The translations under genes were made by a program, and so were the position numbers. A stretch of DNA of 29,850 nucleotides from Trypethelium eluteriae (taxonomy: Eukaryota): the NCBI GenBank assembly GCA_051942245.1, contig JAVECL010000027.1, positions 62,001-91,850 of the forward strand, read 5' to 3'. This document shows, one piece after another, positions 5,707 to 29,850 of this stretch (its first letter is position 1; each line of letters starts with the position of its first letter). The notes beneath the pieces were generated by a model, which was not told where the DNA came from, made no database searches, and worked only from the letters and a program-made list of their open reading frames with translations.

Positions 5707-5923
5707 GAAATGATGTTTGTTAATCCTCTTCGAATTCAATCAGGTAGCTTATAGGGAGTCTAAACACATAGAAAAGTTCGTAACCAGTATAATCTTGTCG
5801 TTGAATCGCAACTGTCGTGAGCTTTTTAGCTCTGTAGTCTTCGCCAGGTAAACGGAGTTCCGATGGCGAAGCCGGGATGGGGCATACGATAACGGCTGAT
5901 GCCAAGGGAAACGAAATCGGTAT

Positions 5924-6847: not shown

Positions 6848-8043
6848 CGCATGAGCTAGGAGAGAAGAAGTAGGAGAGTATACGATACAAGGGAAAAAAA
6901 GGGGAAGGGGGAAACCGTCGGTGGTTATAGACATCAATCCAATGACGACATCAACAGCAGACTGCAGTAAAAATAAAGATATGACGTCCTTTAGCGCTGT
7001 CGAAAAGCTAACTAATTGTTGTTAACTTGTCTTCTCGGTCGAGCCGAAGCAAAGAGGTGACCCAGTCGGTGGTTCATCGTTCTTTAATCGCTTAGAGAGA
7101 CGGAGAGATTCGGAGATTCCTGTTCAACGCAATGTCAAATAAATCGTGGCATCATCTACTGTCCAGTCTGTTCACACAGAATATTAATGTAATGAATAGC
7201 AATTATAGAAAAACCAGTTGGACATTCATTGAACCGAACTTCATTCATCTTCTAAAGTCCTCGCAACTCTGAATAAGCTGTCTGTATGAAAATTCCTCGA
7301 TAATATCGTATTCTCCATAGATCAACCCAGTTCAACCTATTAGCTACCCTACGATTGTCCACCTCCATAACATCCTCCATGAGGTTCTCACCTCATTCGA
7401 ACTCGGGTTTTCCCTATTAAAATCACTTTCGCCAAACGTTGAACCAAGGACTTTATGACCTTTCAAGGGCTTCACACTGGTGGTTGCAGCCAACTTTCTC
7501 CGAGATTTGACAAGAGATAGTCAAATTTGCCCCTTTACAGCCTTACCTGGGCACCTAATCTATAATTTGTTTCCGCGGTGATACTAGTCTTTCACGTGAC
7601 ATGCTTATGTCAAGAGGTCAATACCTTACCCGAGAGGGCGGATGATTTCGACCTGTCAGTAGTACACTACCTTCTTGTCTCTAAACACCACCCAAATTTA
7701 AGCTTTAATATCTTGACACCTTTCATAAAAAATTATGTATATAACAGGCTAACTATAAAGATTGATATCCCCTCTCTTCTTAATATGTATAACCTCTAAA
7801 TCCTTAATCAAAACTTAATCCAGGCGTTTAATTTTCCTGTACCTTATTTAGTACAGCAGGATATTCACTCTGCCTCTCCACAGCATTGTATTAAAGCAAA
7901 ACGTAAGAAACGTTACTGTATTAGCTACAGCATAGCTCATAAAAAGCGTAATAAACATACACAATCAACAGCCCTTATACAAAGGAAGCTATTATAAGAA
8001 TTACAGCCGAATTTGATCAGATGAGGTCTCATCCAAAAGAGAC

Positions 8044-8088
8044 CTCCGCAGAGCTCCATGGGGGTGGTTCTCCGCGGAGCTCCATGGG
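8044..8088 (+). repeat. 19-bp direct repeat, two copies with 26-bp period, just upstream of the DUF3435 pseudogene
   Basis: ctccgcagagctccatggg (8044-8062) and ctccgcggagctccatggg (8070-8088). Confidence 0.85.
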
Positions 8089-8123
8089 CTTCGTCTACCA
8101 TTCCACTCTCGAGCATCTTCATC

Positions 8124-8975
8124 ATGCGGGTCGCGGAGCAGCCGTCATCCAGGCACAATATTTCACGACCCGACAGCCAGCAGCCCATTGAGTCTCGAGT
8201 GGAGGACTACAGCCGCATGGAGGGACGAAACTAAGTTGACCCAGAGAATCTATGCACCCACAAGCGAATCGCTGCAGGACTGGATCAAACGACTTTGGTA
8301 TCAGTAAGCCTGCAACACGCTCAAGGCAGGAAGATGTTGATCCATCATGCTAATGGGGTACGGTGTAGGTATTGCCAATTCCGAGGAACGGGTCCTGCAC
8401 AACTTCCTCTACTGGATACTGAGTGAGAGGCGGGCCACTGTTCGAGGCGCAGGCTCACTGCAGACGTATTGGAATACACTTTAGCCTGGTACGAAAGAGA
8501 GAAACAGGGTCTCATCAAATCGATCATCTAGTCAAGAGCTAGCGAGATGCATGGCACAAGTCGACGTGCTTCAACGCGCTGGGAGAAACATTGTGTGCTG
8601 ATAGAGAGAGGTAAGAGTTTGGTCTAGAAATAGAGAAGAAAAAAATGCCAATCATGCGTGAGTCCAGCTCATCCTGCACAATTAGGCAATACTGACAGCA
8701 ACTGCTAGGAATACATTTGGCATCCCTGACGTCCCCAGCGAACCGTGCCTCCTCCTCTGTCCGCAACTATGCTTTTCAGCTCAGTCTTTGTTGATAAAGC
8801 CTTCGCAGCATCCGACCTAATTAGGTTGAAGCAGCTCTTTAAGATGCGAGTCCCTTCTTTGCTGAATGAATAAGTAGTGCCGATAAAAGCCTCTATGGCA
8901 GTATTCCCATATTTCGGAAGTTAGAGCATAGTGTCCATGAGCTCTAAGTCTCGCCAACAATGCCAGCAACCGACA
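8124..8975 (+). pseudogene. DUF3435 tyrosine recombinase (Starship captain-like) pseudogene, internally deleted and truncated
   Basis: Colinear fragments in shifting frames: IYAPTSESLQDWIKRLWYQ, [intron 8304-8368 GTAAGC..GCTAAT..TAG], YCQF; VLHNFLYWILSERRATVRGAGSLQTYWNTL (8392-8481); LVRKRETG; EFGLEIEKKKMPIMR (8615-8659); [intron 8658-8708]; NTFGIPDVPSEPCLLLCPQ (from 8710); VFVDKAFAASDLIRLKQLFKMRVPSLLNE*VVPIKASMA; IPIFRKLE (from 8903). These match my recollection of DUF3435 blocks (SL.TYW, NTF.IP....P.L.L.P, F.D.AF, IPIFRK). Confidence 0.75.
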
Positions 8976-9579
8976 TCCAGCGAGGCAATGGCGAAGCTCT
9001 TGACAGCAGCAGTAAGGGAAAGATATGAGGCTGACCGTACATGGTTTGATCAATGATTCACAGTGAAATTTGATCTTGCAACATGCAAGTTTTACCGTCT
9101 TCTAACACAATTATCTTTTTAAATATGTCACGTAGGATATATAAACAATTTATCACGGCCTTCCTCCATAAACTATAATGATAAGAATTATGAATGGGAT
9201 GACATGATTAATTATTAAGGCACCTCAACATTAAGTAATTGGGTTAAAAATAAAAGCTAGCTGGGTAAGGATATCCACTTATGGCTATGTAGAGTCTACT
9301 ATACCGTACGGCGCGTACTCAGTAATTACGTTCATTGCGACGATGCTTTCAAGTCCGCGCCACGAGCAGTGCATACTGATACCATGTCGCGCCTGTCTTC
9401 CTCCAACAGTGGCATCACGAATGCTCAACATCACTTCTTTTCGCTCCCAAGTTTTCTAAAACCCTCATTCTTGATGGATGTCTCCGCTGTGTGCCCGACG
9501 TCGATGGATGCGATGACCAGCTCAGACGGTGTCTGCTGCACAAGCATCCTTGCCAGCCTTGGTCACACAACGCATCGCA

Positions 9580-9901
9580 ATGCGCCTGTTGGAATACACT
9601 ACCAACGGCAAGTTGGAGTTTCGCGACGAAGACGTTCCTGGCTATGCCATACTGTCCCACACCTCGGCAATTGATAACGAAGAGGAGGTCCGCTATCAGG
9701 ATGCAGCAGCCTGTATTACGAAGCGCATGAGCAGGGGCAGGAGGAGCACGAACAGAACTGGCTATAAGAAAACACGATACATCTAGGTGGATACTTGCTG
9801 CATCGACAAGCGAGTTAACAACTAGCTCAGTAAGGCTATTGACAGTATGTTTCGGTGGTACCAGCGAGCAACCAAAATGCTATGTTTATCTTGTAGACGT
9901 A
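9580..9901 (+). pseudogene. HET-domain (PF06985-type) heterokaryon incompatibility gene fragment
   Basis: MRLLEY...PGYAILSHT...EEV...GYKKTRYI*VDTCCIDKRVNN*LSKAIDSMFRWYQRATK[+1]CYVYLVDV. Stops at 9784-9786 (W position) and 9823-9825 (E position), frameshift in the A-run 9874-9877, and no WF.RGWTLQE motif downstream. Confidence 0.92.
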
Positions 9902-10764
9902 CACGTTAGCCACTATATTTTTGCTGTTGAAGCGCGTAGCACCATTATAGCTCCTATAATAAGCTCTCATTACTCTCAATATATAAAGAACTGTGCTTTC
10001 CGACCCTCTAAACTAGTTCCTCCTACTAGGTGACCATTATTGGCGAGATTGATTTATGTAATGCTGCCAAACGCGGTTACGGCGTATATTCAAAATTTCC
10101 GCCCACTTGCCTGGTTGCGTACCGTTAACGAGGATTCCACATGCTTGACTACGAGCGCCAGCTTGGTACCTAGGTGGGTACCTTAGGTAGTCTTCGAGCT
10201 GCGGAAGCGTGCCACGTGCTACGACACTTGCACCTCGTTCACAACTACCTGAGGCACTCCATCAACGGCGCACTTGCGACAACTGGCACAACGGCGGGCA
10301 AAGTAGCGGTGCCGTCCGCTACTTAACGCTCACTTACGACTCACTGTGTGCGATGGACCGCCTTAAGACACCTCTATACGCCATTCTCGACCGGCCTTAC
10401 GTTCTCTCACGGCCCGTACCCCTCTCGTCGATGAGTTTGCTCAGAATCCACACTGGCCGTGACACCGACCGTAGCTCAAACAGCTGCAGCGACGGCGATG
10501 ACAATAAGAAGCCTAGCGATATCGAGCGCGGCGGCGTGTGCAATAATGGCGGGGGTCAACGCAAGACATGACCTTGGCGGTATCGCCTAATGCAAGACAA
10601 GGCCATCGCACAGCTCCAAGCTCTGACATAGAGTACAAAGAAAATGGCGGCGGCGTGCGGGATACTGCCACAGACAAAGCTGCCAGCCGACAAAGGCAAA
10701 CGCATCTTATCTCCCCTTCTATTCCAAAGCCACCTCACTCTTCAAAATCTGTAAAATATCCGAC

Positions 10765-11979
10765 ATGGACTTTACTAGCGAGCGCCCTGATGCAGAGCGC
10801 TCTTCGCAGGAGAAAAGTCCCTCAACATCGTCGACTGCATACGTTTGGGACTCGCTATCAAAAATTTGGTTGACAAAGCTGGCGCTGAAAGAGCTAGATC
10901 GAAGGAACAGATCTACTAGGCCTAGGGAGCACCATCCACGTCCATTGCCCGTTGCTCGTGGACTACTAGCTAGGCGCCGTCGACCTCTAACTAGACGCCT
11001 TCTTACCGAGCTACGAAGGGACATCCAGTCACAGAATACACCTGCTTCTGACTTCCTACGAACCTGCAGTCCAGTAGCACTTAGCGACGTACAAGCATTT
11101 GCAAGACACGGCGGCCCCGATCTATTAGACCTAAGAGGAGTATGTACTAAAAACCTTTCAGCACTTGAACCTCCATAGTTAATAAGTAATAGTATCCTGG
11201 ACCCTTCGCTTACTGTAGCCACGAAACGATGATCTCAGCGCTCTCTGACCAAAGGCGAGGGCGTAAACGTCAGTTCTCAGAGTTAGAGCCTTACTCCGAC
11301 ACTCCATATACAAGCACAAAGAAGTCACGATCTACCGGTGCCTACGATCCGAATTTTCGAGAGCGTATGATCAACAACGGGATATATCTTGACGGTTACA
11401 AATACCCTAATGGTCAAGTGCTACCAGAGCCGCAGAATTGGAATGGGCTCCAGCGGATGCTTGCAAAGCCGCGACGATCGCTCTCCTCATATGCAAAGGA
11501 GAGATATGATGAGTTCAAACAGGCAGATGCCGAGGTCACTAGCGAGGACGATGTAATGAGCAAAGTAATCTCAAGGATCCAAGGCACAGTCCCAGACGCA
11601 AACTTTACCGGCAATATTCCGTTCAATAATCTAGCCGACATAATGCGAGGCAAGAGCCATAAGGCGAAACCAGACCGCTTTTGCGGCGCACGACCGGAGC
11701 AGCTCCATCAAGATCTCCATGATAAGCTCCAAGCCCTTATAGTCCCGTCAACTGAGCAGACCCGTCCTATCGCCCCAAACTACTTTGTCGAAGCTAAACC
11801 GCCTAAGGGCTCCGCTTTCGTGGCCTCAAACCAAGCATGCTTCGCAGGCGCGGCAGGTGCTAGGGGTATACATGGTCTTCAGACCTACGGCGAACGGCAG
11901 CCAAAGTATGACAATAACGCGTACACCCTATCAGCTACATACCACTCTGGCACGCTGAAGATCTACTCCCATCACGTCA
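10765..11979 (+). pseudogene. Fungal uncharacterised protein with PD-(D/E)XK nuclease-like motifs, 3'-truncated by retrotransposon sequence. Exons 10765-11139 and 11193-11979
   Basis: Intron 11140-11192 (GTATGT..TAG) joins GGPDLLDLRG to YPGP in frame with ORF 11229. Motifs WDSLSKIWLTKLALKELDRRN, KPDRFCGARPEQL, PNYFVEAK, GARGIHGLQTY, YDNNAYTLSATYHSGTLKIYSHH. The frame reads through into TE DNA and stops at 12027-12029. Confidence 0.8.
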
Positions 11980-14900
11980 GTTGGATAATGCCTTTTCTTC
12001 TTTGGGTACTGTGCTTATTTCTTTTATAATAATTATATTTTGCCACATAGTTCTGGACTTTCTGCTTTATATTGTTGAAAATGCAGTTTTAAGATATATT
12101 CCTAAGTGTTTATGCAACTCTAGGATGTCCATATTGCGGTTTATTATGATATCTTTAAATGTAATAATTAACTTTATTATTTGGAATTTGTAATTTTTAA
12201 GTAATAATAGGGAACTATTTATCTTTGTCTTCTAAGATGTTAAGAACTAATCTAAACTCTTAGGAAATGCTTTTAAGAGTGCTGTTGTCCTTTTTTTTAA
12301 ACACTGCTTAGTACACTTTTTTATTCCCTTAATAGTCTTCTTGTTAACTTAAGGCGTCTGCTTTTTTATTTTCTTTTCCTGGTGCGTAATGTATGGTAAA
12401 CTTATATTGTTTAAGGAGTTCTGCCCATCTAACTTGTCTTTAATTTAACTGTTTTATTATTATAAATATTAACAGATTTTTGTAGTTGGTATAAACATTT
12501 AATTTGGGTGTTCCTTTTATATACACTCTTTAGTACTCTATTGCTGCTATTATTATTAGCAATTCCTTATTATGGATATTATAATTTAGTTTAGCAGGAG
12601 TTATTTTTTTTAAGTAATATCCTATTAGTCTCTACTTCCCATTTACCCATTATAATAAGTAAGTGCTTATTACAAAATCTAAAGCATCTGTTTTAAGCTT
12701 TAGTAATAACTTTAGGTTGCAGATTATTAGTTTTAGGTTTTTTGCAATCTCTTTTTTAATAACTTTAAAGGCTCTTTTTTATAGCTGTTTTTATTTAAAT
12801 AATTGCTTACCCCTTATAAAGTCCGTAAGTAATTTTGCTTTTTTAGAATATTTAGGGATGAATTATTGGTTAAAGTTTATAAATCCTAAGAAACTTTGAA
12901 CCCCCTTAATATTTGTTGGCTTTAGCTATATTAAAATTAATTATACCTTTTTTAGCTCTATTTAAATTTAATTTTTTCTTATCACATATCCTAAGAACAT
13001 TACTTATTTTTAGTGGAAGACATACTTCTTTAGTAATAATTTAAGATTCCTTTTTTTTAAATATTTTAATACCATCTTTACATGTTTTACATATTCTTCC
13101 TTTATTTTGGAATAAATTAGTATATTGTTAAGATATATAATTATAAAAATGTCTAGATATGGTTGTAATGCGTTATTAATCTATTCCTGATAGGTTATAG
13201 GTGCGTTTGTTAATCCAAATAGCATTACCAAGGATTTAAATAGTCTGTATTTTATTCTAAATGCAGTTTTTTATTCCTTACCTTCCTTTATGCGGATGGA
13301 ATTATAGGCATCTCTTTAATCTAATAATATAAGTTACTTTGCTCTGGTTAGGCGGTCTCTTAATTCTGCCGCATTAGGTAATGGATACCTATTCTTAACC
13401 ATAATAGTATTAAGTTTTTAATAATTAATATATAATTATAGTTTTTTATTCTTCTTGGGAATAAAAAGTATAGGATGTTTTGCCGAAAACTCTAACTTTT
13501 GGATAAATCCTTTCCTAAGGTTTTTTTTTAGCTATTTTTAAAGCATCTTTAGTTCTCTTTATAACTGGGGATATAAAGGTCTAAAAGTGGGTTGCTTCCC
13601 TGGCTCTAATTTTATTTTATAATCCCATAGTTGGTGTGGAGGCAGTGCTTAATCTGCCCTCCCTTTCTTAAAGAGTAGCAAATACTTTTTGTATTTAAGA
13701 GGTATTATTATAAGTTTAGCATCCTTATGCTCTGTGTTATCCCTTAATAGACCTTCTACCTTTATTAAAATATTAAATATGCTGGATTTAGTTTATCCTT
13801 CCTGGTTATCCTTATTTATCAACATTAAAGCCACACTATAGCTTATCCTTATCTTATCCCTAAAGCAATTCTCTGCTCCTCTGGGGTCCTATGCAATGCT
13901 GTGTTTGTACTTAGAGAACATAATTTCCCTTATTTCCTAATTAATATTTGGGTTATAACTTCGCAATTATAATAATCTAAATATAATATTATACCTAATT
14001 AGATTTATAATATTAAGTTGGATTTCCTTAGTATGCCCTTGCGTAATTATAAAAATAAGTTCTGTTTTAGTATCCACTTATCCTTGTCCTGCAAATTATG
14101 GTTTAATAGCTTTATATAAACTGTATAACTTTTTTTTTTCCTTAATATTAAGTCTAATTTTTTTAGTAATTATTACTGCTATTATGTTTATTAATGCACT
14201 ATTATTAATTATTGCTTTGACCTGCTGGTTTTTAATTTTGACCTTAATCTTAAACAATCCTGTTATTGCTTTGCTAGGGGATGTTGCATTATAACTTACT
14301 TATAACCTTTTTATAAAAAGTTGTTAATTTTTCCCTCTTCTTCCTTTATCTTTTTAGCGGTTTTATAACACTCCTGCTATTCCGGTTTTATACTTTTATA
14401 ATCCAGGCGATATTTATAGCAATTTAGGTTATTGCATTAATATTTTGCACAATAGTCCGCTTACTTTTAATAGTATTTAATACACACAGTGCTAACACAT
14501 TTTAGCCAGTTTATTATTTAACACATAGGTGGTTTATAGGGTGGTTTTGGGCATAATCCTTATTTGGATTTGCTCCTTCCCTAAGCTACATTACTGCTTA
14601 GTCTGTGGTATGGGCATATCTCTTTTTCTCTGCAGAATTTTTTATTAAGTAAGTTATAATTACTTTCTTATTTTTGGTAAAATCCATAGTCCTTTGTTCT
14701 ACATGCTATAAAGTGCTGGGACTGGTGTTGTAGCTTCTTTTTATATTGTTCTTTTGCCCATTGATGCTTTTTGTATGCATTATTTTAACATTCCTTTTAT
14801 CTAATTATCTGATTATAGTTAGGATGTTGTGAGAGTCTATAAACCTCCTTCCAGTACCTAAAATTCTGCTGCTCTAAATTTTATATAGTTGCTAGGAGTT

Positions 14901-16058
14901 TGGGGCGTGTTATAACATAAGCATAGTAGATTTTACAGTTTTGTATTACACATCTTCCTAGGATTTTATGGTCTGGGTAATCCTCTAATCTTAATATTAA
15001 GTGTACATAACTTTTGTGCTTTTTTTGTGTTGCTACTTCTCCTTAGATACTGTAAGTAATCTTAGGTAGGTTTTCTTGGCTATTTGCAGGGTTAGTAACT
15101 TCTTCCTATAAAGTACTTTCTTCCTCTGCATTGGATTTATTATTAATTATTTAATACTGGAAAATATTTAAGTTCCTAATATTGTTATTACTTATTAATT
15201 TATTAATAATAATTTTATCTTCTCCTAAATGGACTTGGGTTGCCATATTAAATTCTTCTCTGCAATCTACCTTATTTTTAGATTAATAATTCCTTGCTAT
15301 ATACTCTGGTTTTCTATAAGCATAGCATCTTCTCTTGGTTTGGGCACCCTTTTCCTTCTTATTTTGCGCAAGGTTGGAGTACTAAACTCCTTCTATTAGT
15401 TTATTATTATTATAATATTAAGTAATTCCTCCCATTCTTCTTATTAAAATATATGGGGCTAATTGCTTTTTTATACACCTTGCGTAAAGTTTATTGTCCA
15501 GTTTAATTAAGGTATTAATAAGTTCTTATAATATGTTAATAAAGCCGCTGTAGCGCATTAGCTTATCCTTAATATTATCCTTAAGTCCTCTCCAGTACAT
15601 AGGTTGTAATACTTTATTATTCTATTTTAGTTTATCAGAATACTTTTAGAACTTAGCTGCATAATCCGCTGTTAAAGTTTTTTATACTAGGTTCTAAACT
15701 GCTTACTCCGCTATCTTAACTTTGTTAAAAATCCCAAAAATTTATTTAAGCTCTCTTTTAAACTAAGGGAATTTTGCAAAAAGACTGTTAGGGTCCTCTA
15801 AGTTATTAAGATATAAAGTTAATTTAGGTTTTATCCAGTATTAGGCCTATCCTCTTAAGTATAATAAGGCTACTAAAGTCTGTTAATTATTTAGAATTTT
15901 TTTAAATAAGAAGTGGAGTTGGATTTAGCACAGCTATTCTTTTAACTTACTTGTTTCCTTAAAGTACTTATTAGGTCGTCCCACCTTGCCTTCCTTTAAT
16001 AGGGCTTTAGTGTGGGACTCCAGCCGCAGAGTGGATCCTAATTAACTCATCCTTAAGG

Positions 16059-16069
16059 GCGTTTTATTG
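16059..16069 (-). promoter_or_regulatory. Primer-binding site of copy A, complementary to its own LTR (self-priming type)
   Basis: gcgttttatt (16059-16068) is the exact reverse complement of aataaaacgc (16278-16287). It abuts the LTR and lacks a TGG tRNA-type start. Confidence 0.7.
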
Positions 16070-16536
16070 TGTTATAAGCTTATACCCCCTAATACAAGCA
16101 CCGCTTATAACAGGTACATAGAAGGGTCTTAGGGTTTTTTCACGTAAGAGCGGAGTATCAAGGATCCAATAATATAAGAAGGGTCACTAAGCTTTAAACA
16201 ACTTGGTAATAAATAAGGACTTGTTTAATTTGGCTTATAACTAACTGTAGATACAGTTTGGTATAATACAGTAAAGTAATAAAACGCAAGGAGACCTCCT
16301 CTAGAGGGTGATATAGTGCTCATACTTATACCCACAACTCTTATGGTCTGCTCAGCGATCTCCTCGTTATGCTCACGACTGAGCGATGGTGCTCAGCACT
16401 GAGCATTGTTGCTCAGTACTGATCACTCCAGGCTACTACTGATCACTCGGTTAAACTCCGGTTTCTTACCCCTGTTATGTACGGTGTTTCGTGCCGCGGA
16501 CCCCGCCACTTTCTCACGATAACAACGTTCATAACA
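16070..16536 (-). repeat. 5' LTR of copy A (467 bp): family R-U5 with a variant U3
   Basis: Termini TGTTAT...ATAACA. 16070 to ~16292 aligns with the other LTRs; ~16293-16536 does not. Confidence 0.85.
16349..16449. repeat. ~20-bp-period array of palindromic units (TGCTCAG-NN-CTGAGCA type) in the variant U3
   Basis: Units at 16370 tgctcacgactgagcg, 16390 tgctcagcactgagca and 16410 tgctcagtactgatca; degenerate units at 16349 and 16430. Confidence 0.85.
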
Positions 16537-16561
16537 GTTATCCTTTTCTTTAAACACTGCT
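16537..16561 (-). mobile_element. 25-bp remnant of pol from the same family lying between two LTRs
   Basis: gttatccttttctttaaacactgct matches 12284-12308 and 26184-26208 apart from transitions. Confidence 0.8.
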
Positions 16562-17056
16562 TGTTATGAGCCTATACCCCCTAGTACAAGCACAGCTTGT
16601 AGCAGGTACGTAGAGTGGTCTCAGAGTTTTTCACGTAGGAGCGGAGTATCAAGGATCCAATAATGTAAGAAGGGTTACTAAGCTTTAAACAACTTAGTAA
16701 TAAATAAGGACTTATTTAATTTGGCTTATAACTAACTGTAGGTACAGTTTTGGTATAATAATAAAATGTGAGGAAGTCAGTTAAGCTGGTTCCCTCCTAT
16801 ATATATATACTTGTGATCTTCTTAATTACAGTTATTATCCCTCTGATTAGATCTTTATTAATCTTGGGTTAATTATTACTAATTAATGTAATAACTTGTG
16901 ATCTGTAGGTAATCGCCCTAAATTGCTCTACCCTAATCTGTGGCTTATTATTACTAATCAGTTATGTAATCTTTACTTATTATAACCTATCTATGGAATG
17001 CTTACAGTAAGTATAAAGAAAATAGCATTCAGCCTTAATGCGGCTGGGCTGTAATA
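16562..17056 (-). repeat. 3' LTR of copy C (495 bp)
   Basis: Starts tgttatgag, ends gtaata (RIP of gtaaca), next to the PPT; aligns with 23734-24229. Confidence 0.92.
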
Positions 17057-17137
17057 TTACCTCTCCCCTTTTTAACTGTTAGCCTGATAATTGTTTTAAT
17101 GTAGTACATATAGCAGCTAATAATATGTTTAATTATT

Positions 17138-17700
17138 ATAGCTTCCGCCTGCATTCCTGCTTTTTTTATACTTTATTGTTACTATTTTATTGCTAAACTT
17201 TGTAAAGCTTTTATTATAATACATCTTTATTGCAATTATATGCGTTAAAAACTGGACTGCTGCATCAGTCCTAACTCCCAAAGATGTTTAGAGTGTGTAA
17301 GGAGGAATTATCCTTGCAATCTAGCCTTTTTTAAGGTTAACTTTAATAAGATTAATTATAAGATAAATTAGGTTTAGGATAAAATAATAAAATTTATAAC
17401 TAAAATTAATTATTTATAAAAATAATTAAAATTCCTTTATAAATATTAATAATTCTTAGCTTTTAATAAAACTTAAAATATTCTAAACCTTAAGTTTAAA
17501 AAAGAAAAACCTAAAAAGGTTGCTTTACTTAAGAAGTAAGACCCTTTTTATACTGTTCCTAAAATTATGTGGGATATATTAATAAAGGAATTAACCTCCT
17601 TTTTTATTAACTTTTAACTTAATTAGATTTTTTTTAATAATACGTTTTTTTTCTTAAGTTTTAATATTATTATATCTTTTTTTTATACTTAATTAGTATG
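17138..17700 (+). pseudogene. RIP-mutated antisense ORF of copy C (Zn(II)2Cys6-like motif plus coiled coil); end approximate
   Basis: Same frame as copy D ORF 24311 with no indel through the motif. Retains Cys 3-6, including TGC at 17315 that is mutated in D. Confidence 0.7.
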
Positions 17701-18652
17701 GTTTTTATTTCTTACGTATTTTTTAAATTTAGGTATCCTTTTTATTTTATTAAGTATTTTTTACTTTTTTTTTATAAGATCTTTTTTACTTTAAACTTAT
17801 ATTCTTCTTTTAACTTGTAATTAAATATTTCTACATATAATATGCTTTTATTTACTGATTTTAATAGGGATAAATAAAATACTGGGTGGACTTAAGCATC
17901 CTGCGGAAGGTTTAACTTATAATTAATTTTTTTTTTTTTTTTTTTTAATAATAAATAAATTAACCTTTACTGCATTAAGCTTCTTATAAGGTCTTTTTAT
18001 TTTCAAATTTTTTGTAAGTAAATATACTTTATCCCCCTTCTTTAATTAAGGTTTATTTACTTTTTTATTATTTTAAATTAAACTCTTATTTTTTTTATTA
18101 ATATTTTTGGCTATTTTATTATGTACTAATTTTATTACTTTTGCACAATCTTCTCTTAGTGCTAATATTACCTTAATAGGTATTAATTAAACTGGTAGTG
18201 GTATATATCCCATTAACCCTTGGATAGGTGCAAATTTAGTTATACTAAATTCTTTAGTGTTAATATATAACTATACCATAAGTAATAATAATACCCAATT
18301 ATCTTGTAGATTATTAATGTAGTGTCTTAAGAATTATTCCAGTAATTAGTTTATTTATTTAGTTTATTTATTAGTCTCCTTATGGTACGCTATTAATAAC
18401 TTAGTCTTAATCCTTAAGTTTGCTATAAGCATTTGGAAGAATTTAGCTGTAAACCTTTTATCTCAGTCTAATATTATTAAGATAGGTAATTTAAAGTATA
18501 ATATTACTCTTTTAAAGAGTATTTATGCTATTTTTTTTATCCCATATTTTTTGTTAAATAAAATCAGTACTGTATACTTTATTAATCTGCATATTATTAT
18601 ATAAATTGCTATGTAAACTTCTCTGGTTACTGGGTGCTTTAACGCAGGTAAG

Positions 18653-19148
18653 TGTTACGACCCAGCCGCGTCAAGGCTGAACGCCATCTCCTTTGTACTT
18701 GCTGCAAGCGTTCCACAGACAGGTCGTAACGAGTAAAGGTCACGTGACTGATTAGTGGTGGTAAGCCACAGATCAGGATAAAGCGATCTAGGGTGATCAC
18801 CTATAGATCACAGGTTATCACACTAATTAGTAATAATTAACCCAAGATTAGTAAAGATCTGATTAGAAGGATAATAGCTGTGATTAAAAAGATTACAAAT
18901 ATATATATATAGGAGGGAACCAGCTTAACTGACTTCCTCACGTTTTATTATTATACCAAAACTGTACTTATAATTAGTTATAAGCCGAATTAAATAAGTC
19001 CTTATTTATTACTAAGTTGTTTAAAGCTTAATAACCCTTTTTATATTATTAAATCCTTAACACTCCGCTCTTATGTAAAAAACTTCTAAAACCCTTTTAC
19101 ATACCTGCTACAAGCTATGCTTATATTAGGGGGTATAAGCTTATAACA
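18653..19148 (+). repeat. 5' LTR of copy B (496 bp) with TATA run at ~18900-18911
   Basis: TGTTAC...ATAACA termini; reverse complement of the LTRs at 16562 and 23734. Confidence 0.93.
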
Positions 19149-19167
19149 CAATAAAACACCCTTAAGG

Positions 19168-20907
19168 ATAAATTAATTAGGATCCACTCCGCAGCTGGAG
19201 TCCCGCACCAAAGCCCTATTAAAGGAAGGCAAAGTGGGATGACCTAATAAGTACTTTAGGGAAAGAAGTAAGTTAAAAAAATAGCTATGCTAAATCCAAC
19301 TTTACTTTTTATTTAAAAGAATTTTAAATAATTAATAAACTTTAATAGCCTTATTATACTTAAGAGGATAGGCTTAACACTGGATAAAACCCAAATTAAC
19401 TTTATATTTTAATAATTTAGAGGACCCTAATAGTCTTTTTATAAGATTCCCTTAATTTAAAAAAAAGCTTAAATAAATTTTTGGGATCTTTAATAAAGTT
19501 AAGATAGCAGAGTAAGTAATTTAAAATCTGGTATAAAAAACTTTAATAGCAGATTACGCAGCTAAGTTCTAAGAGTATTCTAATAAACTAAAATAAAATA
19601 ATAAAGCATTATAACCCATGTATTAAAGAGGACTTAAAAATAATGTTAAAAATAAGCTAATGCGCTACAGCAGCTTTATTAATATATTGCGAGAATTTAT
19701 TAACACCTTAATTAAACTGGATAATAAACTTTACGCAAGGCGTATAAAAAGGCAGTCAGCCTTATACATTCCAGCAAGAAAAATAGGAGGAATTACTTAA
19801 TATTATAATAATAATAAACTAATAAAAGGAGTTTAGTACTCCAACCTTATGTAAAGTAAAAAGGAAAGAAGTGCCCAAATAAAGAAGAAATGCTATGCTT
19901 ATAAAAAACTAAGGTATATAGCAAGAAACTGCCAATCCAAGAATAAGGTGGATTGCAAAAAAGAATTTAATATGGCAACCTAAGTCTACTTAGGAGAAGA
20001 TAAAATTATTATTAACAAACTAATAAGTAATAATAATATTAGGAACTTAAATATTTTTTAATATTAAATAATTAATAACAAATCTAATGCAGAGGAAGAG
20101 AGTACTTTATGGGAAGAAGTTACTAACCCTGCAAATAGCCAAAAAAACCTACCTAAGATTATTTATAATATCCAAGGAGAAGTGGCAACACAAAAAAAGC
20201 ACAAAAGTTATGTACACCTAGTGTTAAGATTGGAGGATTACCTAGACTATAAAATCCTAGAAAGATGTGTAATACAAAACTGCTAGATTTATTGTGCTTA
20301 TGTTGTAACGCGCCTTAAACTCCTAGCAATTATATGGAATTTAAAGCAGCGGAATTTTAAATACTGGAAGGAGGTTTATGGACTTTTACAACATCCCAAT
20401 TACAATTAAATAGTTGGATGGGAGGAATATTAAAATAATGCGTGTGTAAAGTATTAATAAGCAAAGGAATAAAATAAAAAGAAATTACAACACTAGCTCC
20501 AGCACTTTACAGCATGTGGAATAAGGAACTATAAATTTTATTAAAAATAAGAAAGTAATTATAATTTACTTAATAAAAAATTCTGCAGAGAAAAGGAAAT
20601 ATGCCCATATTACAGACCGGGCAGTAATATAGCTTGGGGAAGGAGCTAAGCCCAATAAGGACTATATTTAAAACCACTTTATAAGCCATCTGTGTGTAAA
20701 ATAATAGACTGGCTGAGATGTATTAATACTGTGTGTATTAAATACTGCTAAGAGCAAGCGGACTATTATGCGAAATATTAATGCAATAACCTAAATTGCT
20801 ATAAATATTATTTGGATTATAAAAATATAAAACCGGAATAGCAAAAGTGTTATAAAACTGCTAAGAAGATAAAAGAAGAAAAGGGAAAAGCTAATAACTT
20901 CTTATAA
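19168..20907 (+). pseudogene. gag: gag of copy B (~580 codons) with CCHC knuckle and long Cys/His-rich C-terminal extension
   Basis: The start (ATA here, ATG in copy A), knuckle CYAYKKLRYIARNC at 19891 (RIP of CYACGKPGHIARNC) and Cys-rich block 20695-20850 are all in one frame. Confidence 0.8.
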
Positions 20908-23733
20908 AGGGGTTATAAGCAAGTTGTAATGTAATATCCCCTAATAAAGCAATAAAAGGATTGTTTAAGATTAAGGTTAAGATTAAAAACTAATAGGTTA
21001 AAGTAATAATTAATAATAATATATTAGTAAACATAATAGCAGCAATAATTACTAAAAAGATTAAACTTAACACCAAGGAAAAGGAAAAGTTATATAATTT
21101 ATATAAAGCTACTAAATTATAACTTATAGGACAAGGATAGGTGGATACTAAAACAGAACTTATTTTTATAATTACGCAAGGGCATATTAAGGAAATCCAA
21201 CTTAATATTATAAATTTAATTAGGTATAATATTATACTTGGATTATTATGGTTGCAAAATTATAACCTAAATATTAATTAGGAAATAAGGGAAATTATAT
21301 TCTTTAGGTGTAAACACGGCATTGCATAGGACCCTAGAAGAGCAGAGAATTACTTTAGGGATGAGATAAGGATGAGTTATAATGTGGCTTTAATGTTAAT
21401 AAATAAGGATAATTAAAAAGGATAAACTGGATCTGGCGTATTTAATACTTTAATAAAAGTAAAAGGTTAATTAAGGGATAACATAGAGCGTAAAAACGCT
21501 AAACTTATAATAATACCTCTTAAATATAAAGAGTATTTGCTACTTTTTAAGAAAGGGAGGGCAGAAAAAGCACTACCTCTGTACTAACTGTGGGACTATA
21601 AAATAAGATTAAAGCTAAGGAAGCAACCCACCTTTAGACCTTTATATCCTTAGTTATAAAGAGAACTAAAGATGCTTTAAGAATGGCTAAAAGAAAACCT
21701 TAGGAAGGGATTTATTTAAAAATTAGAGTCTTTGGCAGGACACCTTATACTTTTTATTCCCAAGAAGAATAGCAAACTGTGACTATGTGTTGATTACCGG
21801 AAACTTAATGCTATTATAATTAAGAATAGGTATTTATTACTTAATGCGGCAGAATTAAAAGACCGCCTAACCAGAGCAAAGTAACTCACATTATTAGATT
21901 AGAGAGATGCTTATAATTCCATCCGCATAAAAAAAAGTAAGGAATAGAAAACTGTATTTAGAATAAGATACGGACTATTTAAATCTTTAATAATGCTGTT
22001 TGGATTAATAAATACACCTACAACCTGTTAGGAATAGATTAATAATGTATTATAATTATATCTAAATATTTTCATAATTGTATATTTTAATAATATACTG
22101 ATTTATTCCAAAATAAAGAAAGAATATATAAAATATATAAAGATGGTATTAAAATATTTAAAAAAAAGGAATCTTAAATTATCACCAAAGAAGTATGTTT
22201 TTTACTAAGAATAAGTAATATTTTTAGGATATGTAATAAAAAAAAATCAGATTTGAATAAAACTAAAAAAGGTATAATTAATTTTAACATAGCTAAGGCT
22301 AATAAATGTTAAGGGGGTTTAGAGTTTCTTAGGATTTATAAATTTTAATTAATAGTTTATCCCTAAATATTCTAAGAAAGCAAAACCACTTATAGACCTC
22401 ACAAAGGGTGAGCAATTGTTTAAATAAGAATAGCCACAAAAAAGAGCCTTTAAAGTTATTAAAAAAGAGATTGCAAAAAACCTAGAATTAATAATCTATA
22501 ACCCAAAGTTACTATTAAAGCTTAAGATGGATGCTTTAAATTTTGCAATAGGCGCTTGCCTATTATAATGGGTAAATAGGAAGTGGAGACTGATAGGATA
22601 CTACTCAAAAAAAATACTCCTGCTAAACTAAATTATGACATCCATAACAAAAAGTTGCTGGCAATAATAGCAGCAATGGAGCACTAAAGAGCGTACATAA
22701 AAGGGACACCCAAATTAAATATTTATACTAACCACAAAAATCTGTTAATATTTACAATAATAAAACAGTTAAACTAATAATAAGTTAAATAGGCAGAACT
22801 CCTTAAATAATATAAGTTTATTATACATTACGCGCCAGGAAAAGAGAATAAAAGAGCGGATGTATTAAGTCAATAAAAAGACTATTAGGGAAATAAAAAA
22901 GTGTACTAGGCAGTATTTAAGGAAAAGAATAATAGCACTCTTAAAAGCATTTCTTAAAAGTTTGGATTAATTCTTAATATCTTAAAAGATAAGAATAAAT
23001 AGTTCCTTATTATTACTTAAAAGCTATAAATTCTGAATAATAAAATTAATTATTACATTCAAAGATATTATAATAAACCGCAATATAGACATCTTAGAGT
23101 TATATAAACACTTAGGAATATATCTTAAAACTGCATTTTTAATAATATAAAATAGAAAGTCTAAAGTTATGTGGCAAAATGTAATTACTGCAAAAGAAAT
23201 AAGCATAGTACCCAAAAAAGAAAAGGTACTATCCAACCAATTTAAGCACTAATAAGACCTTAGGAGCAGATTATAATAAACTTTATTACAGACTTACCTG
23301 TGTTAAAGCACCTAATAACCAGAGAAGTTTACATAGCAATTTATGTGATAATATGCAGACTAATAAAGTATATAATACTAATTTTATTTAACAAAAAATA
23401 TGGGATAAAAAAAATAGTATGGATACTCTTTAAAAGAATAATATTAGACTTCAGATTACCTATCTTAATAATATTAGATAGAGATAGAAGGTTTACAGCT
23501 AAATTCTTCTAAATGTTAATAGCAAACTTAGGGACTAAAACCAAGTTATCAACAGCGTATCACAAGGAGACTGATGGATAAACTAAATAGATAAACTAAT
23601 TACTAGAATAGTTCTTAAGATACTATATTAGTGATTTATAAGATAATTAGGTATTATTATTACTTATGGCATAATTGTGTATTAATACTAAAGAATCCAG
23701 TATAATAAAGTTCGCGCCTATTTAAGGACTAAT
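20883..23733 (+). pseudogene. pol: pol of copy B (PR, RT, RNase H, integrase), -1 frame relative to gag
   Basis: LCVDYRKLNAIIIKNRY (~21785-21835), YFNN for YLDD (22083-22094), NYDIHNKKLLAII (~22630-22670), NFITDLP (~23280-23300), LDRDRRFTAKF, STAYHKETDG (~23550-23580). Confidence 0.92.
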
Positions 23734-24229
23734 TGTTATGAGCCTATACCCCCTGGTACAAGCACGGCTTGTAGCAGGTACGTAGAGTGGTCTCAGGGGT
23801 TTTTCACGTAGGAGCGGAGTGTTAAGGATCCAATAATGTAAGAAGGGTTACTAAGCTTTGAACAACTTGGTAATAAATAAGGATTTGTTTAATTTAGCTC
23901 ATAACTAACTGTAGGTACAGTTTTGGTATGATAATAAAACGCAAGGAAGTTAGTTAAGCTGGTTTCCTCCTACATATATATACTTATGATCTTTTTAATC
24001 ACAGCTGTTATCCTTCTGATTAGATCTTTACTAATCTTGGGTTAATTATTACTAATTAGTGTGATAACCTGTGATCTATGGGTGATCACCCTAAATTACT
24101 TTATCCTAATCTGTGGCTTATTACTATTAATTAGTTATGTGACCTTTACTTGTTACAACCTATTTATAGAACACTTGCAGTAAGTATAAAGGAGATGGCG
24201 TTTAGCTTTAACGCGGCTGGGTTATAACA
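23734..24229 (-). repeat. 3' LTR of copy D (496 bp)
   Basis: tgttatgag...gttataaca followed by the PPT complement. Confidence 0.93.
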
Positions 24230-24310
24230 TTACCTCTCCCCTTTTTAACTGTCGGCCTGACAGTTGTTCTGGTGTAGTATATATAGCAGCTGATAATGTA
24301 TTTAATTATT

Positions 24311-24874
24311 ATGGCTTCCGCCCGCATTCCTGCTTCTTCCATACTTTATTATTACTGTCTTATTGCTAAACTTTGTAAGGCCCCTATTATAATGCGTCTT
24401 TGCCATAACTGCGTGCATTAAAAACTGGACTGCCGCATTAATTCTAACTCCTAAAGATGTTTAGAGTGTGTAAGGAGGAATTATCCTTATAATTTGGCCT
24501 TTTTTAAGGTTAACTTTAACAAAATTAACTGTGAGATAAATTAGGTTTGGGACAAAATAATAGAATCCATAGCTAAGACTAATTATTTGCGGAAATAATT
24601 AGAGTTCCTTTGCAAGTGCTAATAATCCTTAGCTTTTAATAAGACTTAAAACATTCTAAACCTTAAGTCTAAGGAAGGAAAACCTAAGGAGGTTGCTTTG
24701 CTTAAGGAGTAAGACCCTTTTTATATTATTCCTAAAATTGCGTGGGATATGTTAATAAAAAAATTAACCTCCTTTTTTATTAACTCTTAACTTAATTGGA
24801 TTCTTTCTAATAATGCGTTTTTCTTATTAAGTTTTAATATTATTGTATCTTTTTTTTATATTTGGCTAGTGTAA
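24311..24874 (+). pseudogene. RIP-mutated antisense ORF of copy D (Zn(II)2Cys6-like motif plus coiled coil, up to ~187 aa); end approximate
   Basis: ATG 24311; MASARIPASS...MRLCHNCVH*KLDCRINSNS*RCLECVRRNYPYNL...ESIAKTNYLRK*LEFL. Internal stops are TAA/TAG, consistent with RIP of CAA/CAG/CGA. Confidence 0.75.
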
Positions 24875-29713: not shown

Positions 29714-29850
29714 TGTTACGAACGCTCCTGACCAAGGACGCGTTGGAGGTAGCCACTACTTGTAGTGCACCAATCGCGTAACACTGAGCGCGTCTCGCAA
29801 CAGGAGTAAGCGAGGACGTGGCACGGACGCCTCGACCATCTCGCAGCGAG
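29714..29850 (+). mobile_element. Start of another LTR (copy E) inserted in gag of D; GC-rich, little RIP; runs off the window
   Basis: Abrupt TGTTACGAACG, the same terminus as the sense start of the copy A LTR (TGTTATGAACG). Homology of D to A ends at 29713. Orientation is inferred from this terminus. Confidence 0.75.

What the first reader, a model, noticed from the sequence alone, without database searches (positions are those of the whole stretch)
8124..11979. Decayed Starship-like element: captain pseudogene followed by HET and nuclease-like cargo
Seen: multi-frame fragments with two intact-looking introns that the ORF track misses entirely, followed in the same orientation by a HET pseudogene and a PD-(D/E)XK-like gene, then a large TE nest. 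Established: DUF3435 tyrosine recombinases lead Starship giant transposons, whose cargo often includes HET/NLR-type conflict genes. Inference: this is the left end of a dead Starship that became a TE sink. The middle of the captain appears deleted at ~8657, where PIMR runs straight into a later intron, and I see no catalytic C-terminal part.
Basis: partly seen in the sequence, partly recalled or inferred. Interest (0 to 1): 0.75.

Follow-up and report, generated by a model that had tools for sequence, protein, structure and literature searches.

The report
Dead Starship-type recombinase gene with neighbours
A lichen fungus carries the broken remains of a Starship-type recombinase gene, followed by a broken HET gene and a nuclease-like gene cut by a retrotransposon; such wrecks are common in fungi, so this is a real but fairly ordinary find.

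Summary
Window 8124-9219 is a pseudogene of a DUF3435 tyrosine recombinase, the kind that acts as a Starship "captain". It has about seven frame changes, at least ten in-frame stops, a 262-nt internal deletion at 8654-8658, and lacks roughly the last 180 codons. Window 9580-9907 is the first ~113 codons of a HET-domain gene, also broken. Window 10765-11981 is a two-exon DUF7924 gene. An AlphaFold model of an intact 90%-identical relative has a restriction-endonuclease (PD-(D/E)XK) fold. The gene is cut after codon 388 of 479 by an LTR-retrotransposon nest (11980-29718) with RIP-like composition.

A second, ~99.7%-identical genome (run X1) has the same block beside the same left flank. It keeps the 262 nt and lacks the LTR insertion, so both of those lesions are recent.

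The Starship reading is only partly supported. The captain relic is real and points into Starship-typical genes. But I found no boundary, direct repeat, empty site or other hallmark cargo. By published criteria this is at most a "Starship-like" region. It is ordinary, with low-to-moderate interest. The fold assignment for DUF7924 is the small new item.

The parts
7022..8123 (.). Spacer between the left-flank ORF (5924-7021, minus strand) and the captain relic. This is the only place a left element boundary could lie. It holds two structural differences from run X1: 7663-7913 is present only in the window, and at 8090|8091 both X1 contigs carry unaligned sequence (425 nt and 70 nt), so X1 appears to hold extra DNA there.
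   Evidence: no 5S rRNA or tRNA; 13-nt motif repeated at 8050 and 8076
8124..9219 (+). DUF3435 tyrosine-recombinase (captain-type) pseudogene. ATG at 8124. Fragments in three frames align to P0034 residues 28-418 of 600. About seven frame changes, at least ten in-frame stops, and the last ~180 codons are absent.
8304..8368 (+). Intron 1 of the captain relic (65 nt, GTAAGC..GCTAAT..TAG). Splicing restores the conserved ..LWYQ|YC.. junction.
   Evidence: YC follows LW.[QR] or its aligned counterpart in P0034, P0035, P0036 and P0038
8654..8658 (+). Junction of a window-specific 262-nt deletion (87 codons + 1 nt) with 5-nt microhomology ATGCG. It removes the segment that holds the GNR..AL motif of DUF3435 proteins.
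   Evidence: X1 record 3: 257 extra bases plus a 5-nt overlap; P0032 residues 6-92
8658..8708 (+). Intron 2 of the captain relic (51 nt, GTGAGT..CTGAC..TAG). It is skipped in the gene model behind P0032.
9580..9907 (+). HET-domain pseudogene. Only the first ~113 codons remain (MRLLEY..YAILSHT..VDTCCIDK..SMFRWYQ), with two in-frame stops, a 12-codon gap and a terminal frameshift. The best relatives include N-terminal HET domains of NLRs (P0062, P0136, P0148).
10765..11139 (+). DUF7924 gene, exon 1 (125 codons).
   Evidence: identical to the N-terminus of P0048
11140..11192 (+). DUF7924 gene, 53-nt phase-0 intron (GTATGT..TAG).
   Evidence: P0048 reads ..DLLDLRG|YPGPFAY..
11193..11981 (+). DUF7924 gene, exon 2 (263 codons), cut after ..KIYSHHVS. 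That is 388 of the 479 codons of the intact relative. It keeps the KPD, VEAK and NQA motifs but loses the last beta-strand and the long C-terminal helix of the model.
11980..29718 (.). Nest of one LTR-retrotransposon family with RT and RNase H. Copies lie at 11980-16259 (RT on the minus strand), 18959-23237 (inverted) and 25880-29718. It is AT-rich with RIP-like dinucleotide bias. The right end is a truncation, and DUF7924 does not resume after it.

Best explanation
This is the inert 5' stump of a Starship-type mobile element, 'Starship-like' in the published sense.

How it was built (inferred). A DUF3435 tyrosine recombinase gene once sat at the element's left end, reading inward. Behind it came cargo: an NLR-type HET gene, and a DUF7924 gene whose product has a restriction-endonuclease (PD-(D/E)XK) fold.

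How it decayed. The element died by ordinary mutation, not by RIP. Frameshifts, stops, loss of the recombinase 3' end and loss of most of the HET gene came first, because a second genome shares them. Two lesions arose later in this genome only: a microhomology-mediated 262-nt deletion inside the recombinase relic, and an LTR-retrotransposon insertion that cut DUF7924 and grew into an 18-kb RIP-mutated nest.

Current state. Nothing here can move now.

Shown: the identity and the breaks of the three genes, the order of the lesions, and the fold. Inferred: that the three genes once belonged to one element.
For: Gene identities:
- DUF3435 homology in three frames, collinear with full-length relatives.
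- HET fragment.
- DUF7924 gene model confirmed by P0048. P0048 differs from the window's reading only at the Cys/Tyr site (11683). Over the matching DNA, X1 shows 1 changed base in 1,334 nt.

Fold of DUF7924:
- The model of intact relative P0001 has pLDDT 75.8 and pTM 0.75.
- In the VIA search, rows 3-13 are all restriction-endonuclease-fold proteins. Examples: BpuSI Z 8.2, rmsd 4.2, 146 aligned; DrdV Z 8.0, rmsd 3.3, 130 aligned; HsdR Z 6.9; TT1808 Z 6.5; NucC Z 5.8.
- The Atlas structural neighbour cluster is PDDEXK_12, TM 0.61 over 264 residues.
- The conserved KPD and ExK motifs sit on the strands at 157-159 and 192-197 of the model.

Order of lesions: comparison with X1 and with P0032 and P0048.

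Starship link:
- HET/NACHT NLRs are conserved cargo, and DUF3435 colocalised with such genes but lacking TSDs is termed 'Starship-like' (PMC9156397, passages read).
- Captain upstream of DUF7924 on the same strand occurs in 2 of 22 dereplicated metagenome loci with at least 4 kb upstream, which is 2 of 80 loci scanned. L061 continues into an NB-ARC/TPR NLR and a SesA/PigL_N gene.
- DUF7924 is among the most copy-number-variable families in a Neurospora crassa pangenome (PMC13412767, one passage read).
Against: - No boundary, DR/TIR or empty site was found, and the right side is hidden by the nest and the window's end.
- The one other genome has the block in the same place. Flank and block are equally similar to the window, so nothing shows mobility or accessory status.
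- DUF3723, FRE and PLP did not appear in any frame scanned. 12030-29850 was not scanned apart from one 1000-codon stretch.
- 20 of 22 DUF7924 loci with enough upstream DNA have no captain.
- On the DUF7924 tree, the three captain-linked genes fall in three separate clades, each next to captain-less relatives. The label needs 3 changes, and 192 of 500 shuffles do as well. So DUF7924 is not a fixed captain partner.
- The recombinase and the HET gene are both truncated, so their present adjacency could result from deletions that joined unrelated DNA.
- The ExK glutamate and the PD aspartate are not invariant in the family.
Confidence: 0.55

Rival explanations
1. This is an orphan captain pseudogene. 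The DUF3435 relic is all that remains of an element, or of a captain-only copy. The HET fragment and the DUF7924 gene are resident genes of a gene-poor, TE-rich accessory region that merely lie next to it.
For: - Most DUF7924 genes have no captain nearby: 20 of 22 loci with at least 4 kb upstream. The captain-linked ones are scattered on the DUF7924 tree.
- Captain pseudogenes are very common. The starfish authors expect many pseudogenised YRs (PMC11162782). In lichen-associated fungi, of 4,128 putative captains, 1,481 were shorter than 203 aa and 1,139 were called putative pseudogenes (bioRxiv 10.1101/2025.11.25.690456, Methods passages read).
- HET and NLR genes also occur near DUF7924 without any captain (L021, L024, L063).
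- The block is fixed in both genomes available.
Against: - A captain reads into its element from the 5' end. So DNA just downstream is element DNA unless a deletion intervened.
- All three genes share one strand.
- The same gene order recurs in L050 and L061.
Confidence: 0.35
2. The block was recently transferred horizontally between two lichen fungi. The suspicion arose because proteins annotated under two different genus names are ~99-100% identical here.
For: - P0048 and P0032 (annotated in Viridothelium virens) and P0050 (annotated in a Trypethelium eluteriae MAG) all fit this locus at 97-100% identity.
- The left-flank ORF 5924-7021 has only 46% and 44% identical hits, on other contigs.
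Against: Run X1 matches the window equally well on the flank (8 differences in 6,461 nt; 7 in 1,223) and on the block (2 in 568; 6 in 1,874; 1 in 1,334), and its contigs join flank-side sequence up to 8090. The two genomes are simply near-identical overall. The missing flank orthologue is an annotation gap.
Confidence: 0.03
3. The resemblance to DUF3435 and HET is chance similarity in non-coding DNA.
For: Each single Pfam hit is below the family's gathering score.
Against: - The tblastn hits are collinear over ~390 residues of full-length relatives (E 8e-21 summed for P0038).
- phmmer gives E 1.9e-12 against a library of 1.84 billion proteins.
- HET gives E 1.7e-29.
- A relative's annotated protein matches 35 of 36 residues, including a shared frameshifted tail.
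Confidence: 0.01

Closest known systems
Starship giant transposons and 'Starship-like' or degraded ('Derelict') regions (Gluck-Thaler et al. 2022, PMC9156397; starfish, PMC11162782)
   Same: A DUF3435 tyrosine recombinase gene comes first and reads towards HET/NLR-type genes. The element is decayed while neighbouring genes persist, and it lies in a TE-rich setting.
   Different: - No DR, TIR, TSD or empty site was found.
- Only ~4 kb and two further genes are visible.
- No DUF3723, FRE or PLP was found.
- Derelict regions were defined as lacking DUF3435, whereas here it is the captain relic that survives.
Tangerine and other captains of lichen-forming fungi (bioRxiv 10.1101/2025.11.25.690456; abstract and passages read)
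   Same: The host is a lichen fungus, RIP-affected repeats lie beside the element, and pseudogenised captains are numerous.
   Different: - Tangerine is a bounded element in Xanthoria (Lecanoromycetes) with an intact captain of a Lecanoromycetes-specific family.
- This relic is in a Dothideomycetes (Trypetheliaceae) lichen fungus and is unbounded.
- That paper's text does not mention Trypethelium or Viridothelium (0 occurrences). Its supplementary genome list could not be read.
PD-(D/E)XK (restriction-endonuclease-fold) nucleases, including the fungal family PDDEXK_12 (PF20516)
   Same: DUF7924 has the alpha-beta-beta-beta-alpha-beta core. PD and ExK motifs lie on consecutive strands, followed by a conserved Q in the next helix.
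   Different: - No sequence-level match to any Pfam PD-(D/E)XK family, to PDB sequences or to PADLOC models.
- The acidic residues are not invariant.
- No nuclease activity has been tested.
- The two best structural rows are mitoribosomal proteins (Z 10.7 and 10.0), not enzymes.
HET-domain NLRs (PF06985)
   Same: The N-terminal signature is present: MRLL.., YAILSHT.., WVDTCCIDK.., SMFRWYQ.
   Different: Only ~113 codons remain. It has two stops, W changed to S in SHTW, and a 12-codon gap. No NACHT or NB-ARC part remains in the window.

Membership tests
DUF3435 tyrosine recombinase (Starship captain), PF11917 | Sequence match to the DUF3435 profile or to family members | tested here: met
   Two contiguous sub-threshold Pfam hits (17.2 + 15.2 bits; cut-off 25.8). 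phmmer E 1.9e-12 to P0034, which itself scores 472 bits for DUF3435. Collinear tblastn to P0034 residues 28-418.
DUF3435 tyrosine recombinase (Starship captain), PF11917 | Intact reading frame with the conserved catalytic residues | tested here: not met
   About seven frame changes, at least ten stops, a 262-nt deletion removing the GNR..AL segment, and the last ~180 codons absent. It is a pseudogene, a member by descent only.
Starship element | Captain at the 5' end, reading into the cargo | tested here: inconclusive
   The orientation fits: captain, HET and DUF7924 are all on the + strand. The element's end itself is not located.
Starship element | Direct repeats or TIRs at both ends, and an empty site in another genome | tested here: inconclusive
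   Only one other genome was available (X1), and it holds the block at the same place. No 5S rDNA or tRNA target was found. The right end lies outside the window, and no whole genome is held.
Starship element | Colocalised conserved cargo (DUF3723, FRE, PLP, NLR) | tested here: inconclusive
   A HET (NLR-type) fragment is present. No DUF3723, FRE or PLP hit in 1-8100 (six frames) or in the plus-strand frames and ORFs read over 8017-12029. The nest was scanned over only one 1000-codon stretch.
HET domain, PF06985 | Match to the HET profile and its three conserved blocks | tested here: met
   Pfam 20.2 bits (cut-off 22.5) over profile positions 1-88 with stops read through. tblastn E 1.7e-29. 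565 relatives at E<=1e-3. Only the N-terminal part is present.
DUF7924, PF25545 | Score above Pfam's gathering cut-off | tested here: met
   31.1 bits against 27 for the truncated ORF. The intact relative P0048 scores 45 bits.
PD-(D/E)XK nuclease superfamily | Restriction-endonuclease core fold | tested here: met
   VIA-align rows 3-13 are endonuclease-fold proteins with Z 8.2 down to 5.1. Foldseek's best row is a putative restriction endonuclease domain, but only at E 0.026. Atlas neighbour PDDEXK_12 has TM 0.61. The model is of relative P0001, not of the window's cut protein.
PD-(D/E)XK nuclease superfamily | Catalytic D ... (D/E)xK placed on strands 2 and 3, and nuclease activity | tested here: inconclusive
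   The KPD and VEAK motifs sit at the strands 157-159 and 192-197 of the model. But D and E vary in some members, no residue-level superposition was available, and activity cannot be tested here.
LTR retrotransposon (Ty3/Gypsy-like) | RT and RNase H domains, with repeated copies | tested here: met
   RVT_1 at 70.1 bits and RT_RNaseH_2 at 37.6 bits. Three copies at 80-91% identity. The superfamily name rests on my reading of the pol order, not on a test.

The most novel reading that the evidence does not exclude
DUF7924 is an uncharacterised fungal PD-(D/E)XK nuclease family that travels with mobile and conflict loci. It would recur as a captain-proximal Starship gene and often sits head-to-head with a protein kinase gene. 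It would then act as an element-maintenance or self/non-self (toxin-like or defence-like) nuclease, rather than as passive cargo.
Probability: 0.15. Interest if true: 0.55.

Novelty: new member of a known kind. Interest (0 to 1): 0.28.

Why it matters
The locus adds a dated example of how a Starship-type element decays in a lichen-forming Dothideomycete. Old frameshifts and truncations are shared by two genomes. A strain-specific microhomology deletion and an LTR insertion came later. That is useful for annotation, since it flags a captain pseudogene that gene callers split into small false genes. But it changes no concept, because captain pseudogenes and degraded Starship-like regions are already described in large numbers. 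The one item with wider use is that DUF7924 models as a restriction-endonuclease fold. DUF7924 is a widespread, copy-number-variable fungal family of unknown function. It often neighbours kinase, NLR/HET and occasionally captain genes, which gives a testable functional lead.

Tried and rejected
- Whole-genome context: no genome is held for this window, so I could not search for a right boundary or for other copies.
- Earlier notes of this scan: none for this genome.
- Strain comparison: only one run (X1) was listed as a holder, and no RNA holder was listed. So I could make no presence/absence survey and no expression check.
- Six-frame Pfam scan of 1-8100: no family.
I replaced it with one 1000-codon stretch.
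- Rfam on 1-12500 at E<=1: only a chance mir-196 row at E 0.65. No tRNA. So there is no 5S or tRNA target site.
- Protein kinase relic in the window, sought because kinases flank many DUF7924 genes: nothing below E 0.07.
- Sequence-level links of DUF7924 to known nucleases: the profile against PDB sequences gave five rows, all E>=0.22 and unrelated. Pfam at E<=10 gave only DUF7924. PADLOC gave none. Foldseek against PDB gave no row at E<=0.001.
- HGT reading of the near-identity to proteins filed under two genus names: rejected.
- RIP as the cause of the captain's death: rejected. The composite index is -0.5 to -1.0 on the relic and +0.2 to +0.6 on the nest.
- Captain and DUF7924 co-diversification: rejected by the tree. 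L025 and L056 were left out there because their ORFs were split, and 13 short representative loci were never included.
- L067's weak DUF3435-query hit (E 0.003) is to the non-DUF3435 tail of P0037, so I did not count it.
Full report
**What the window is.** The window is fungal.
- Positions 1-8100 have GC 0.37-0.53. They hold long ORFs with no Pfam match, including a minus-strand ORF at 5924-7021.
- Positions 8124-11980 hold the finding.
- Positions 11980-29718 are AT-rich (GC 0.19-0.36; a single 500-nt bin at 16001-16500 reaches 0.43).
- Near-identical annotated proteins come from lichen-forming Trypetheliaceae (Dothideomycetes).
- No whole genome is held. Earlier notes of the scan had nothing.

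**The recombinase relic (8124-9219, + strand).**
- Pfam on stop-read-through frames gave two DUF3435 (PF11917) hits below the 25.8-bit cut-off. Frame 1 covers about 8698-8775 against profile 83-108 (17.2 bits). Frame 3 covers about 8766-8915 against profile 106-155 (15.2 bits). They are adjacent in both the DNA and the profile.
- phmmer of the frame-1 read-through against 1.84 billion representatives gave 16 proteins at E<=1e-3, 4 of them at E<=1e-10.
- I ran 10 of those 16 through Pfam. Seven carry DUF3435 above the cut-off (P0032, P0034-P0038, P0046). Two short ones have no family; they match only the N-terminal region ahead of the Pfam domain. One repetitive protein (P0033) gave spurious rows.
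- tblastn of these proteins onto the window gives a collinear map to P0034 (600 aa):

| Window | Frame | P0034 residues | Note |
|---|---|---|---|
| 8224-8481 | 1 | 28-103 | |
| 8486-8659 | 2 | 105-148 | |
| (none) | | 149-224 | no counterpart in the window |
| 8677-8793 | 1 | 225-263 | |
| 8766-8915 | 3 | 255-304 | |
| 8903-9013 | 2 | 301-360 | includes RGNGEALDSSS |
| 9016-9219 | 1 | 351-418 | includes NLILQH; six stops |

- Nothing aligns after 9219, so about the last 180 codons are gone.
- The ATG at 8124 opens a frame-3 stretch that shifts into frame 1 near 8222.
- In all there are about seven frame changes and at least ten in-frame stops.

**Introns and the internal deletion.**
- Intron 1 is 8304-8368 (GTAAGC...GCTAAT...TAG). 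It holds stops. Its removal joins ..LWYQ to YCQFRG. The 'YC' follows LW.[QR] or its aligned counterpart in P0034, P0035, P0036 and P0038.
- Intron 2 is 8658-8708 (GTGAGT...CTGAC...TAG). It lies between ..MPIMR and NTFGIPD.. .
- P0032 is a 128-aa protein annotated in a relative. It reads MPIMR, then 87 further residues, then NTFGIPDVPSEPCLLLCPQLCFSAQSLLIKPSQPPT. It matches the window in 35 of 36 residues, including the out-of-frame tail.
- That copy therefore shares the downstream frameshift but keeps the middle segment.
- Laying the contigs of run X1 on the window settled the matter. One contig covers 8091-8658, then has 257 bases that are not in the window, then covers 8654-10527.
- With the 5-nt overlap (ATGCG), that is a 262-nt deletion in the window, or 87 codons plus one base, bordered by microhomology.

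**The HET relic (9580-9907).**
- Pfam gave HET (PF06985) at 20.2 bits (cut-off 22.5) over profile positions 1-88.
- The homologue search gave 565 proteins at E<=1e-3 among 800 candidates. The best was E 8.7e-22, with 56% identity over a third of the 300-aa query.
- tblastn aligns residues 1-113 of P0061 to 9580-9876 at E 1.7e-29. The alignment has two in-frame stops, a 12-codon gap and S in place of W in SHTW. There is then a short frame-2 tail to about 9907.
- Several of the best relatives are N-terminal HET domains of NLRs (P0062, P0136, P0148). No NACHT or NB-ARC remnant follows.

**The DUF7924 gene (10765-11981).**
- The ORF 11193-12029 scores 31.1 bits for DUF7924 (PF25545), above the cut-off of 27.
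- It has 31 relatives at E<=1e-3 among 323 candidates in the near-length search.
- P0048 (479 aa) has an N-terminus identical to the window's 10765-11139 reading. It joins ..DLLDLRG to YPGPFAY... That confirms exon 1, a 53-nt phase-0 intron (11140-11192) and exon 2.
- Over the matching DNA, X1 differs from the window by one base in 1,334. That base is 11683 G>A, which changes Cys to Tyr.
- The gene is cut after ..KIYSHHVS, at codon 388 of 479. Relatives continue QPHGPGTQP.., while the window continues into the LTR element.
- The same LTR end recurs at 25880, in direct orientation.
- The 132 bases after the nest (29719-29850) do not resume the gene.

**Fold of DUF7924.**
- I made an AlphaFold2 model of P0001, an intact relative 90% identical to the window's exon 2, from a 25-row alignment. 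It reached mean pLDDT 75.8 and pTM 0.75. The core (residues ~45-320) is mostly above pLDDT 80, dipping to 53-78 over ~131-190.
- Foldseek against PDB found nothing at E<=0.001. Its first row is a putative restriction-endonuclease domain at E 0.026.
- The Foldseek-independent VIA search gave two mitoribosomal chains first: 3j7y_5 (Z 10.7, rmsd 5.3, 224 aligned) and 7a5f_s3 (Z 10.0).
- After those came an unbroken run of restriction-endonuclease-fold proteins:
  - BpuSI nuclease domain: Z 8.2, rmsd 4.2, 146 aligned
  - DrdV: Z 8.0, rmsd 3.3, 130 aligned
  - HsdR: Z 6.9
  - TT1808: Z 6.5
  - NucC: Z 5.8
  - 3ijm, 9y1l, a DUF820 nuclease, EcoRI and EcoR124I HsdR: Z down to 5.1
- Z values near 8 are, by the tool's own note, typical best scores. 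The argument therefore rests on how consistent the list is.
- The ESM Atlas adds a lead. A fungal PDDEXK_12 cluster is a structural neighbour (TM 0.61 by query, 264 aligned) and has a feature score of 0.89.
- In the alignment, P155, G160, A161 and Q209 are invariant and K197 is nearly so. The motifs KPD and (F/I)xExK lie on the strands 157-159 and 192-197 of the model, followed by the helix that carries Q209. This is the classical layout.
- However, the D and the E are replaced in some members, and sequence methods see no nuclease family.
- So a PD-(D/E)XK fold is shown, while nuclease activity is only inferred.

**The nest.**
- 11980-29718 holds three copies of one element: 11980-16259, 18959-23237 (inverted) and 25880-29718. 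Pairwise identity is 80-91%.
- One copy gives RVT_1 at 70.1 bits and RT_RNaseH_2 at 37.6 bits.
- RIP composite indices are +0.22 to +0.61 in the nest. They are -0.48 to -0.97 on the recombinase relic and about 0 on HET and DUF7924.
- In X1 the family's summed word depth is 80,000-220,000, against ~434 for the flanks. It is therefore highly repeated in that genome.

**The second genome.**
- Only run X1 was listed as a holder (share 0.82).
- Its contigs cover the flank: 1-6461 with 8 differences, and 6440-7662 plus 7914-8090 with 10 differences.
- They also cover the block: 8091-8658, 8654-10527 and 10647-11980, with 2, 6 and 1 differences.
- Flank and block are thus equally close. The block is in the same place, and no empty site exists in this pair.
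- The structural differences are:
  - 7663-7913 and 10528-10646 are present only in the window.
  - X1 appears to hold extra DNA at 8090|8091, which is 33 nt before the relic's ATG. One contig runs on for 425 nt and the other for 70 nt there, neither lying on the window.
  - X1 keeps the 262 nt of the captain.
  - X1's contig runs 3,049 nt past 11980 without lying on window 1-20000. Together with the intact P0048, this shows that the LTR insertion is specific to the window's genome.
- This also removed a false lead. The flank ORF 5924-7021 has only 46% and 44% identical hits. That had suggested the block alone was shared. It is an annotation gap, not a transfer.

**Is it a Starship?**
- Published definitions (passages read):
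  - A Starship has a DUF3435 captain at its 5' end, cargo, DRs and sometimes TIRs. Many annotated YRs may be pseudogenes (PMC11162782).
  - DUF3435 colocalised with DUF3723, FRE, PLP or NLR but lacking TSDs is 'Starship-like'. HET/NACHT NLRs are conserved cargo. Degraded regions such as Derelict are described (PMC9156397).
- This locus has the captain relic, the right orientation and a HET fragment.
- It shows no boundary, no 5S or tRNA target, no other hallmark cargo and no polymorphism.

**Test of the captain-DUF7924 link.**
- I fetched 80 metagenome loci that encode DUF7924. They form 48 groups at >=95% nucleotide identity.
- Only 2 of the 80 loci, L050 and L061, have a DUF3435 gene. That is 2 of 48 groups, or 2 of the 22 groups with at least 4 kb upstream. 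In both, the captain lies 2-4 kb upstream on the same strand.
- L061 reads: captain, kinase (opposite strand), DUF7924, NB-ARC/TPR NLR, then a SesA/PigL_N gene. That is a Starship-like head.
- On a DUF7924 tree of 52 rows, the three captain-linked genes lie in three clades next to captain-less relatives.
- So the order recurs more often than I would expect by chance. I did not run a formal background control, and DUF7924 is not a fixed captain partner.
- I put the single-element (Starship stump) reading at 0.55 and the orphan-captain reading at 0.35.

**Novelty.**
- Captain pseudogenes and degraded Starship-like regions are already in print, including for lichen-associated fungi. In one survey, 1,139 of 4,128 putative captains were set aside as putative pseudogenes and another 1,481 as shorter than 203 aa (bioRxiv 10.1101/2025.11.25.690456, Methods passages).
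- A full-text search for 'DUF7924' found one paper. It only lists the family among the most copy-number-variable in Neurospora crassa.
- I found no printed fold or function for DUF7924 in that one search. Supplementary files of the preprint could not be read and might list the genomes concerned.

**Verdict.** This is a real, well-resolved and ordinary relic. I score interest at 0.28.

Noticed in passing
L008, L061, L062, L067, L069, L073, L075, L078 (upstream, opposite strand); L039, L076 (downstream): In 10 of 35 representative DUF7924 loci, one ORF cluster lies about 1 kb from DUF7924. In 8 of the 10 it is upstream and head-to-head. The 4 N-terminal-half ORFs I tested hit Pkinase; two other ORFs of the cluster had no hit. 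A second kinase cluster occurs in 6 loci (2 of 2 tested hit Pkinase). This may be a nuclease-fold plus kinase gene pair. The window has no kinase relic.
   Followed up: partly
L061:4276-17193: A metagenome contig has a complete DUF3435 gene, then a kinase (minus strand), DUF7924, a 978-aa NB-ARC/TPR NLR (minus strand) and a SesA/PigL_N gene. It looks like an intact Starship head with DUF7924 as an early gene. Its boundaries were not examined.
   Followed up: partly
window 8090|8091, 7663-7913 and 10528-10646: Structural differences from run X1. At 8090|8091, 33 nt before the relic's ATG, both X1 contigs carry unaligned sequence (425 nt and 70 nt), so X1 appears to hold extra DNA there. Two segments, of 251 nt and 119 nt, are present only in the window. 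The extra X1 sequence could not be read. It might hold the lost left terminus.
   Followed up: no
window 8050-8062 and 8076-8088: A 13-nt motif (one mismatch between the copies) is repeated 26 nt apart, just before the 8090|8091 breakpoint. There are 2 matches against 0.23 expected, and 1 of 100 shuffles reached 2. Its meaning is unknown.
   Followed up: partly
window 25880-29718 and 29719-29850: The third retrotransposon copy stops short of where the first copy runs on. The GC-rich 132 nt after it do not continue DUF7924. So the nest's right edge is a deletion or rearrangement breakpoint, not an integration end.
   Followed up: partly
window 5924-7021 (minus strand) and ~1700-5700 (plus strand): The left-flank ORF of 365 codons belongs to a small family with only two annotated relatives (46% and 44% identity) and no Pfam domain. 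A very long Ser/Thr-rich ORF upstream also has no Pfam match.
   Followed up: partly
model m1397c0cd30f0 (P0001): The two best structural matches of DUF7924 are mitoribosomal large-subunit chains (3j7y_5 Z 10.7; 7a5f_s3 Z 10.0), aligned over 214-224 residues. That is longer than any nuclease match. I did not establish which proteins these chains are.
   Followed up: no
window 11909-12275: The annotated protein P0050 (229 aa, ending ..QPKKCF) fits a splice from inside DUF7924 exon 2 into the LTR element. This gene-model artefact is caused by the insertion.
   Followed up: partly
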